From Enterobacteria phage KhF3, in sequence record KT184315.1: a stretch of DNA of 64,000 nt. The stretch is one strand, 5' to 3'. A model generated the notes under the pieces. That model searched no databases and was not told the origin of the DNA. It saw nothing but the letters and a program-made list of their open reading frames with translations. Every line of letters starts with the position of its first letter. The stretch's first letter is position 1. Made by a program: the position numbers and the translations under genes. Positions 11,332 through 11,355 of this stretch are shown piece by piece.

Positions 11332-11355
11332 CACCTTGTCAAGTACTTTGTCAAC
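11332..11355. promoter_or_regulatory. conserved junction motif CACCTTGTCAAGTACTTTGTCAAC
   Basis: Two tandem TTGTCAA half-sites; near-identical copy at 56209-56232, both at minus/plus divergent junctions. Confidence 0.45.

What the first reader, a model, noticed from the sequence alone, without database searches (positions are those of the whole stretch)
11332..11355. Same 24-bp motif at both divergent minus/plus junctions
CACCTTGTCAAGTACWTTGTCAAC occurs at 11332-11355 and 56209-56232, each time in the gap where a minus-strand block meets a plus-strand block. It holds two tandem TTGTCAA half-sites 6 nt apart, which looks like a binding site for a regulator coordinating divergent promoters rather than chance.
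Basis: seen in the sequence. Interest (0 to 1): 0.5.

Follow-up and report, generated by a model that had tools for sequence, protein, structure and literature searches.

The report
Paired -35 promoter boxes, Felix-O1-like phage
The repeated 24-bp motif is real and strongly conserved, but it is most likely two copies of the ordinary bacterial promoter "-35 box" (TTGACA, read on the other strand) starting the two leftward gene blocks of a Felix-O1-type phage, not the site of a special regulator.

Summary
The window is a Felixounavirus genome (Felix O1/wV8/KhF2 type). The 24-mer occurs exactly twice, at the genome's only two divergent junctions, with zero matches expected by chance.

Read on the minus strand it is GTTGACA-N6-TTGACA-AGGTG, that is, two perfect sigma-70 -35 hexamers 12 bp apart. 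In 57 related viral contigs, 12 metagenome contigs and Felix O1 itself, all 12 hexamer bases are invariant.

The distal hexamer has what the phage's other consensus promoters have:
- an upstream AAAAAG tract;
- a conserved TG and TAnnnT -10 at 17-18 bp;
- orientation toward the leftward genes.

It ranks 21st and 28th of about 640,000 candidate promoter configurations in the window. At site 1 it equals the P41 promoter predicted for Felix O1 in 2010.

The proximal hexamer sits inside that promoter's spacer. It has no usable -10 at site 2, yet it is equally invariant. A distant Hafnia phage also has paired TTGACA at both junctions, but 10 and 11 bp apart.

Verdict: ordinary host-polymerase promoters with an unexplained, conserved second -35 box. 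A dedicated regulator is not excluded but is not favoured. Interest is modest.

The parts
11332..11355 (-). Motif copy 1. On the minus strand it reads GTTGACA-AAGTAC-TTGACA-AGGTG.
   Evidence: Conservation pattern.
11349..11354 (-). Site 1 distal TTGACA, the proposed -35 of the leftward promoter. It equals P41 of Felix O1.
   Evidence: Invariant in all relatives. A -10 lies 17 bp away and an A-tract lies upstream. PWM rank 28 of 639,600. P41 is described in PMC3185647.
11337..11342 (-). Site 1 proximal TTGACA, inside the spacer at about -23 to -18. Its role is unexplained; it may serve as the -35 of a weak second promoter (N15 AATACT).
   Evidence: Invariant. PWM rank only 230.
11326..11331 (-). 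Site 1 -10 hexamer TAGGCT. It follows TAnnnT in all lineages and is preceded by a conserved TG. The predicted start is about 11318-11322 on the minus strand.
   Evidence: The same -10 (TGaTAGGCT) is used by the promoter at 40961.
11359..11363 (-). A-tract (AAAAA on the minus strand) just upstream of the distal hexamer. It resembles an UP element.
   Evidence: The 'aaaaagNNg TTGACA' context is shared with the promoters at 7722, 9226, 9317, 10820, 22969, 23834 and 62063. It is conserved in relatives.
11348..11376 (+). Candidate rightward promoter TTGTCA-N17-TGcAATAGT. Its -35 overlaps the distal leftward hexamer on the opposite strand.
   Evidence: TG[CT]AAT is conserved. PWM rank 71.
11379..11407 (+). 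Rightward promoter TTGACT-N17-TACCAT, with an invariant downstream leader.
   Evidence: rank 30. This stretch is 93-96% conserved, against 83-85% for the ORF that follows in four of the five lineages (95.6% in L060).
56209..56232 (-). Motif copy 2. On the minus strand it reads GTTGACA-ATGTAC-TTGACA-AGGTG.
56226..56231 (-). Site 2 distal TTGACA, the proposed -35 of the leftward promoter.
   Evidence: Invariant. PWM rank 21 of 639,600.
56214..56219 (-). Site 2 proximal TTGACA, inside the spacer. No usable -10 lies 15-19 bp downstream.
   Evidence: Invariant. PWM rank 3726.
56202..56210 (-). Site 2 extended -10, TGtTAATCT, 18 bp from the distal hexamer. The predicted start is about 56194-56197 on the minus strand.
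   Evidence: TG and TA(A/G)TCT are conserved. Scored.
56237..56241 (-). A-tract (AAAAA on the minus strand) upstream of the site 2 distal hexamer.
56233..56261 (+). Rightward promoter for the DNA polymerase, TTGCTT-N17-TAATGT. Both hexamers are conserved and the 17-bp spacer varies.
   Evidence: The PWM score is weak (rank 1009), so this rests on the phylogenetic footprint.
11205..11325 (-). Predicted 5' leader of the site 1 leftward transcript. It is unusually conserved, AT-rich and contains a palindrome at 11253-11272.
56035..56201 (-). Predicted 5' leader of the site 2 leftward transcript. It is conserved and contains a palindrome at 56078-56096 with a two-sided change in some lineages.

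Best explanation
The 24-mer is the core of a host-RNA-polymerase (sigma-70) promoter read on the minus strand. One copy sits at the head of each of the phage's two leftward transcription blocks.

Each copy contains two perfect -35 hexamers (TTGACA) one helical turn apart. The distal hexamer, together with an upstream A-tract and a TG plus TAnnnT -10 element 17-18 bp downstream, forms the main promoter. Predicted starts are near 11320 and 56195, leftward. The 'CACC' end of the motif is the complement of the GGTG that carries the extended -10 TG.

The proximal hexamer lies in that promoter's spacer, 5-6 bp before the -10. I infer that it is also read by sigma region 4, as a second docking register. 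That register either competes with or tunes firing of the main promoter or, at site 1 only, supplies a weak second promoter (TTGACA-N15-AATACT).

Because TTG(T/A)CAA is nearly palindromic, the distal copy at site 1 can also act as the -35 (TTGTCA) of a rightward extended -10 promoter.

Shown: the sequence anatomy, the conservation pattern and the similarity to the phage's other promoters. Inferred: RNA polymerase binding, the start sites and the role of the proximal hexamer.
For: 1. The invariant unit is exactly TTGACA on the minus strand, in both copies at both sites. This holds in 28+27 IMG/VR contigs, the window, Felix O1 and 12 metagenome contigs retrieved with a flanks-only pattern. The inter-hexamer 6 bp takes at least 14 different forms, and the seventh base of 'TTGTCAA' changes in L026 and L054-56.
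2. At site 1 the 30-bp promoter core is only 71-74% identical to four of the five divergent lineages (86.7% to L060). That is more diverged than the adjacent coding sequence, yet 12 of 12 hexamer bases are unchanged.
3. The distal hexamer shares the 'aaaaagNNg' upstream tract with the window's other consensus promoters. It has a conserved TG and TAnnnT at N17/N18.
4. A rough sigma-70 weight matrix ranks the distal-hexamer promoters 21st and 28th of 639,600 configurations in the window.
5. More distant Ounavirinae have TTGACA-N17 promoters at the same places. Erwinia Pistou has TTGACA-N17-TACATT and Yersinia P778 has TTGACA-N17-TAATGT and TTGACA-N17-TGtTAAAGT. Pectobacterium Wc4-1 has back-to-back TTGACA promoters.
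6. Hafnia phage Zyzzx has paired TTGACA at both junctions. The distal-to--10 distance is kept at 17 bp, but the hexamer period is 11 and 10 bp.
7. Whichard et al. 2010 independently predicted the site 1 distal hexamer as promoter P41.
Against: - No transcript 5' ends or polymerase footprints exist for any Felixounavirus in the searched literature.
- The -10 hexamers are weak, matching the consensus at 3 of 6 positions.
- The proximal hexamer has no usable -10 at site 2 (rank 3726) or in Zyzzx, so 'second promoter' cannot be its general role. Its strict conservation is unexplained by a plain single-promoter model.
- In Felix O1 RT-PCR, the genes behind these promoters (41, 42, 97-99) peak at 25 min. 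Genes 20-22, 45 and 46, which lie behind single-hexamer consensus promoters, peak at 5 min. That hints at extra control.
Confidence: 0.72

Rival explanations
1. This is the first reader's idea: the paired repeats are the operator of a dedicated regulator. One candidate is the phage's 99-aa XRE/HTH_3 protein, encoded just right of the window. Another is an unknown sigma-region-4-like factor. Such a protein would overlap the -35 regions and switch both leftward operons, and perhaps the divergent rightward promoters, on or off together.
For: - The same element sits at exactly the two junctions and nowhere else.
- The proximal hexamer is invariant although it is useless as a -35 at site 2.
- TTGNCAA-N5-TTGNCAA is nearly self-complementary, with the minus strand matching at 2 mismatches. 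A dimeric HTH protein could therefore fit.
- The phage encodes an HTH_3 protein.
- The first genes of both leftward units share one kinetic class, peaking at 25 min.
Against: - Conservation stops exactly at the borders of the sigma-70 hexamer, and the seventh base needed for the palindrome varies.
- The central base is T in both copies in every genome. That makes them direct repeats, not the T/A pair a symmetric operator would need.
- Zyzzx keeps paired hexamers at 10 and 11 bp instead of 12, with the distance to the -10 preserved instead. It has no detectable homologue of the XRE protein by tblastn at E<=1e-3, where all 258 homologous records fall in the Felixouna/Moogle/Susp group.
- Other relatives use quite different multi-hexamer layouts.
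Confidence: 0.15
2. Each site carries two complete overlapping promoters. Both hexamers would be true -35 elements with their own -10s, giving two start sites about 12 nt apart. This resembles the tandem early promoters of other phages.
For: - At site 1 the proximal hexamer is followed by AATACT at N15, or TACTTA at N17.
- The rightward half of site 1 mirrors the motif as TTGCAA-N6-TTGACT, and there the downstream hexamer is the one with a good -10, TTGACT-N17-TACCAT.
Against: - At site 2 no hexamer with A at position 2 and T at position 6 lies 15-19 bp from the proximal TTGACA (rank 3726).
- In Zyzzx, reading the sequences, none lies at 16-18 bp either. No weight-matrix scan was run on Zyzzx.
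- In the site 1 lineages with an extra A, the candidate -10 shifts and weakens.
Confidence: 0.08
3. The motif serves a DNA transaction other than plain gene expression. One version is a transcription-primed replication origin: a strong promoter firing into a conserved AT-rich region, as at the T7 primary origin or the T4 oriF/oriG origins. Another is a host response-regulator site of the Pho-box type (TGTCA direct repeats).
For: - Both leftward promoters fire into long, AT-rich leaders that are better conserved than the neighbouring genes.
- Gene orientation and GC skew switch at both junctions.
- The TGTCA-N6-TGTCA of Zyzzx site 1 has Pho-box spacing (the Pho-box consensus is from my own knowledge).
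Against: - GC skew simply follows gene strand, so it gives no independent signal for an origin.
- There are no iterons beyond the two hexamers.
- The Pho box needs an 11-bp period and CTGTCAT with an AT-rich spacer, whereas the Felix group has 12 bp and GC-containing spacers.
- The TATAAT 9 bp to the right of site 2 is not conserved outside Felixounavirus proper.
Confidence: 0.04

Closest known systems
Consensus E. coli sigma-70 promoter with an UP-like A-tract, as in strong early promoters of virulent coliphages (T5, T7 A1-A3) and rrnB P1
   Same: It has a perfect TTGACA, a 17-18 bp spacer, a TG/TAnnnT -10 and an A-tract at about -46 to -40. It points at the downstream genes. Its hexamers are conserved and its spacers vary.
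   Different: A second perfect TTGACA is embedded in the spacer and is equally conserved. The -10 is weak. The genes downstream peak at 25 min rather than 5 min in Felix O1.
Promoter P41 of Felix O1 (Whichard et al. 2010, PMC3185647)
   Same: It is the same DNA as the distal hexamer of site 1. That paper also places divergent promoters in the 40/41 and 96/97 gaps.
   Different: The paper pairs the hexamer with TATAGG at N15, which exists only in Felix O1 itself; most relatives have TGTAGG. It reports no comparable sequence in the 96/97 gap. It does not mention the second hexamer or the shared 24-mer.
Lambda PR' late promoter with a second, -35-like TTGACT bound by sigma region 4 during the sigma-dependent pause (from my own knowledge)
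   Same: A second TTGAC(A/T) lies downstream of the true -35 in a phage promoter and is read by sigma region 4 in a non-initiating complex.
   Different: In lambda the element lies at about -8 to -3, next to a -10-like pause element, and it works with the Q protein. Here it lies at -23 to -18, site 2 has no -10-like partner, and no Q-like gene was identified.
PhoB Pho box (CTGTCAT-N4-CTGTCAT) replacing the -35 (from my own knowledge)
   Same: It consists of direct TGTCA repeats in the -35 region.
   Different: The period here is 12 bp rather than 11 in the Felix group. The conserved unit is TGTCAA and the spacer is not AT-rich. The orientation fits leftward -35 boxes better than a rightward activator site.
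T4 middle promoters (MotA box at -30 plus AsiA) (from my own knowledge)
   Same: A phage-specific element in the -35/spacer region of sigma-70 promoters is tied to a non-early kinetic class.
   Different: There is no TGCTTtA box at -30 in the motif. Whichard et al. found no MotA/AsiA-type polymerase-modifying genes, and I did not re-check this. A consensus -35 is retained, whereas T4 middle promoters lack one.

Membership tests
Sigma-70 (housekeeping) promoter | A -35 hexamer close to TTGACA | tested here: met
   Both copies at both sites are exact TTGACA on the minus strand. They are invariant in all relatives.
Sigma-70 (housekeeping) promoter | A -10 element (TAnnnT) 16-18 bp downstream of the -35 | tested here: met
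   Met for the distal hexamer: N17 TAGGCT at site 1 and N18 TGtTAATCT at site 2, conserved as TAnnnT. Not met for the proximal hexamer at site 2 (rank 3726).
Sigma-70 (housekeeping) promoter | Orientation toward, and position upstream of, a transcription unit | tested here: met
   Both point into the minus-strand blocks that start at 11204 and 56034.
Sigma-70 (housekeeping) promoter | Phylogenetic footprint: hexamers conserved, spacer free | tested here: met
Sigma-70 (housekeeping) promoter | Holoenzyme binding and a mapped transcription start | not testable with these tools
   No start-site data for Felixounavirus were found.
Transcription-factor operator (dimeric HTH or tandem response regulator) | Fixed spacing between half-sites across relatives | tested here: not met
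   The period is 12 bp in the Felixouna/Moogle/Susp group but 11 and 10 bp at the two junctions of Hafnia phage Zyzzx.
Transcription-factor operator (dimeric HTH or tandem response regulator) | Conserved positions that define a site distinct from the polymerase's own elements, with dyad symmetry for an HTH dimer | tested here: not met
   Conservation is limited to the 6-bp sigma-70 hexamer. The seventh base varies, and the central base is T in both copies, so there is no dyad.
Transcription-factor operator (dimeric HTH or tandem response regulator) | A cognate regulator that co-occurs with the site | tested here: inconclusive
   An XRE/HTH_3 protein is present, and its homologues are restricted to the Felixouna/Moogle/Susp group. 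Zyzzx has paired hexamers without a detectable homologue. Binding itself was not testable.
Pho box (PhoB) | Two CTGTCAT repeats with an 11-bp period and an AT-rich 4-bp linker, about 10 bp upstream of a -10 | tested here: not met
   The period is 12 bp, the unit is TTGTCAA, and linkers such as GTGCA or GAGGC occur. The TATAAT 9 bp downstream at site 2 is not conserved.
Replication-origin iterons | Three or more phased repeats next to an unwinding element, with initiator binding | tested here: not met
   There are only two repeats per site. The AT-rich conserved flank exists, but initiator binding is not testable.

The most novel reading that the evidence does not exclude
The spacer-embedded second -35 box may be a deliberate timing device shared by both leftward operons of Felix-O1-like phages. 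In one version it is a decoy docking site for sigma region 4. In another it is the target of a small phage factor that mimics or repositions region 4. Either would hold back two otherwise consensus promoters until the middle of infection, and would explain how these phages schedule transcription without a known polymerase modifier.
Probability: 0.15. Interest if true: 0.6.

Novelty: new member of a known kind. Interest (0 to 1): 0.28.

Why it matters
Felix O1 is a classic Salmonella typing and biocontrol phage, and its temporal control of transcription is explicitly described as unknown (Whichard 2010). This analysis gives concrete, testable promoter assignments for all four transcription blocks, including the DNA-polymerase junction where no promoter had been found. 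It also flags one odd, strongly selected feature, a second perfect -35 box inside the spacer, as the obvious place to look for regulation. If the second box proves inert or merely a weak extra promoter, the finding is routine annotation.

Tried and rejected
- **Chance repeat.** Rejected: 0 matches expected, and the motif is conserved across genera.
- **Physical genome end or terminal repeat.** The Si3 record is opened 10 bp from the motif, but it simply lacks 11 bp there, so this is an assembly or annotation choice. If the UAB_Phi87 record starts at its physical end, which I did not check, its 608-bp terminal repeats would lie about 6 kb away.
- **Known RNA family in either junction.** Nothing came near the Rfam gathering scores.
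- **T4-type MotA box or late TATAAATA promoter.** TATAAATA occurs at site 1 only and is not conserved. TTGCTT beside site 2 fits a -35 at N17, not a MotA box.
- **Pho box.** The period and linker are wrong.
- **Other near-matches to the double site.** One lies at 37094-37124, inside the phosphoribosyl-pyrophosphokinase gene. TTGACATTGACA occurs at 39968 and 53470, inside coding sequence. I judged all of these to be coding-sequence coincidences.
- **Published transcriptomes or start-site maps for Felixounavirus or phiEa21-4.** None was found.
- **Existing annotation.** No promoter features were listed in the parts of the wV8 and KhF2 records that I retrieved.

Full report
**What the window is.** Both junction regions match about 250 GenBank phages of the genus Felixounavirus (Felix O1, wV8, KhF2 and others) at 95-100% identity. 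They match Moogle-, SUSP- and Sf14-type relatives at 80-90%. The window carries 26 tRNA genes and the usual Felix O1 gene set. The genome has four transcription blocks and therefore two divergent junctions. Whichard et al. 2010 describe the same layout for Felix O1, placing the junctions between genes 40/41 and 96/97.

**The observation.** The 24-mer occurs at 11332-11355 and 56209-56232 on the + strand. No other match exists with up to three mismatches, and none appeared in 100 shuffles. The part of the genome outside the window, read from phage KhF2, adds no further copy. The two copies lie in the two divergent gaps. The 7-mers are 5 nt apart, 12 bp start to start.

**What is under selection.** I collected both junctions from 28 and 27 IMG/VR contigs and from Felix O1 itself. 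I also retrieved 12 metagenome contigs with a pattern that specified only the flanks, so the result could not be biased toward intact repeats.
- In every sequence both repeats are intact.
- The 6 bp between the hexamers take many forms: aagtac, aaggac, aatgac, agcctc, ttcctc, agggga, atgtac, atgcac, atgcgc, atacac, attcac, aatcac, aataac, aagcac and attcaa.
- What never changes is TGTCAA on the + strand, which is TTGACA on the minus strand and is the exact sigma-70 -35 consensus.
- At site 1 the 30-bp core is only 71-74% identical to four of the five divergent lineages (86.7% to L060). That is lower than the neighbouring coding sequence at 75-81%, yet all 12 hexamer positions are unchanged.

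**The distal hexamer is a standard promoter -35.** On the minus strand the sites read as follows.
- Site 1: aaaaagttg-TTGACA-aagtac-TTGACA-aggTG-TAGGCT.
- Site 2: aaaaagcaag-TTGACA-atgtac-TTGACA-aggTGt-TAATCT.

The distal hexamer is 17 or 18 bp from a hexamer that is TAnnnT in every lineage, preceded by a conserved TG. It is preceded by the same 'aaaaagNNg' tract found upstream of the other intergenic TTGACA promoters in the window, at 7722, 9226, 9317, 10820, 22969, 23834 and 62063. A rough sigma-70 weight matrix, with frequencies taken from memory, ranks these two promoters 21st and 28th of 639,600 configurations on both strands. The proximal hexamers rank 230th and 3726th. The site 1 distal hexamer is the P41 promoter that Whichard et al. 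predicted. They found nothing comparable in the 96/97 gap.

**Rightward promoters.** Phylogenetic footprints also define the divergent partners.
- Site 1: TTGACT-N17-TACCAT (11379-11407), which is invariant.
- Site 1: TTGTCA-N17-TGcAATAGT (11348-11376). Its -35 is the opposite-strand reading of the distal leftward hexamer.
- Site 2: TTGCTT-N17-TAATGT (56233-56261), with conserved hexamers and a variable spacer.
- The conserved DNA polymerase start is 56292, not the longest-ORF start at 56262.

**More distant relatives**.

| Phage or contig | Layout at the junction(s) |
|---|---|
| Erwinia phage Pistou, Salmonella phage PMBT37 | One TTGACA-N17-TACATT at the polymerase junction |
| Yersinia phage P778 | TTGACA-N17-TAATGT at the polymerase junction; back-to-back TTGACA promoters at the other |
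| Pectobacterium phage Wc4-1 | Back-to-back TTGACA promoters |
| phiEa21-4 | Two TTGACA 34 bp apart |
| IMG/VR contig L096 | Two TTGACA 17 bp apart, on the other strand |
| Hafnia phage Zyzzx | Paired TTGACA at both junctions, 11 and 10 bp apart; distal-to--10 distance still 17 bp |

Strong TTGACA promoters at these junctions are therefore general in the subfamily. The paired layout recurs, but its geometry is set by the distance to the -10, not by a fixed repeat period. That is what independent -35 boxes would give, and not what a rigid operator would give.

**The unexplained part.** The proximal hexamer lies at about -23 to -18 of the main promoter. It has no usable -10 at site 2, and by inspection at 16-18 bp none in Zyzzx either, yet it is as invariant as the distal one. 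Because its conserved borders coincide exactly with the sigma-70 hexamer, I think sigma region 4 reads it too, in an alternative and probably non-productive or modulating register. This is inference.

Felix O1 RT-PCR data show that genes 41, 42 and 44 and genes 96-99, which lie on either side of the two junctions, peak at 25 min. Genes 20-22, 45 and 46, which I place behind single-hexamer consensus promoters, peak at 5 min. This is compatible with some delay mechanism, but the data are coarse.

**The regulator hypothesis.** The motif is nearly self-complementary, with the minus strand matching at two mismatches. The phage encodes one XRE/HTH_3 protein just right of the window. Several points count against a dedicated operator:
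- the central base of both repeats is always T, so they are direct repeats and not a dyad;
- the seventh base needed for symmetry varies;
- the repeat period differs in Zyzzx;
- homologues of the XRE protein were found only in the Felixouna/Moogle/Susp group and not in Zyzzx.

I keep this rival at about 0.15.

**Other readings.** No Rfam family matches either junction. The Pho-box, MotA-box, T4-late-promoter, genome-end and origin readings were each considered. They either fail a defining feature or lack independent support (see Tried and rejected and the membership table).

**Verdict.** The motif is real and functional, and it is best read as host sigma-70 promoter elements heading the two leftward operons. 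This is an ordinary kind of feature, partly anticipated by the P41 prediction of 2010. The shared, strictly conserved second -35 box inside the spacer is the one non-routine aspect. It is cheaply testable with start-site mapping and hexamer point mutants.

Noticed in passing
11205-11325 and 56035-56201 (minus strand): The predicted 5' leaders of both leftward operons are better conserved than the adjacent genes: 84-90% against 75-81% at site 1, and 81-85% against 68-78% at site 2. They are AT-rich and are predicted to fold better than shuffles (z = -2.9 and -2.6). No Rfam family matches them.
   Followed up: partly
56078-56096; also 11253-11272: TAACGTAT-tct-ATACGTTA is a palindrome in the site 2 leader. 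Moogle/Michonne-type contigs (L024, L025) carry ATGTAT..ATACAT, a change on both arms that keeps the symmetry or pairing. Site 1 has AGATATC-cagaaa-GATATCT. These could be RNA hairpins or operators.
   Followed up: partly
11295-11306 and 56173-56184 (minus strand): The 12-mer ACTTAAAAGGTT occurs exactly only at these two places. Each lies within roughly the first 25 nt of a predicted leftward transcript. Hafnia phage Zyzzx has TTACTTAAAAGAC at a similar offset. The shorter NCTTAAAAG is enriched throughout the window (84 copies against 39 expected).
   Followed up: partly
11330-11391: The site 1 core is an imperfect palindrome with 25-nt arms that are 72% complementary. The rightward side mirrors the motif as TTGCAA-N6-TTGACT-tgtTGTA, which suggests an old inverted duplication of a two-hexamer promoter module.
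   Followed up: partly
56262 versus 56292: The longest ORF of the DNA polymerase starts at 56262. The conserved ribosome-binding site (GAGGGAG) and the start codon shared by all relatives are at 56292. The predicted -10 of the rightward promoter would lie inside the longer ORF.
   Followed up: yes
GenBank records MG065664.1, MG065668.1 and GU169904.1 (hits to window 55900-56600): Records named Campylobacter phage A132/A126 and Staphylococcus phage SA1 carry DNA 97-99% identical to Felixounavirus. They look like contaminated or chimeric assemblies.
   Followed up: no
3923-9170: There is a cluster of 26 tRNA genes on the minus strand, downstream of the site 1 leftward promoter. Further consensus TTGACA promoters lie inside it, at 7722, 9226 and 9317.
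   Followed up: no
9339-10751 (minus) and 10836-11204 (minus): The first two genes of the site 1 leftward operon are a DUF5681 protein and a 471-aa DUF2828/DUF7788 protein, which PHROGs labels 'RNA-binding protein'. Both are conserved across Ounavirinae and have unknown roles.
   Followed up: no
KhF2 record KT184314.1 (loci L002 and L003): The deposited annotation carries features such as 'attP', 'cos site', 'StbAB binding site' and 'P22 C1-binding site' on 10-14-bp strings inside genes. I saw nothing in this analysis to support them.
   Followed up: no
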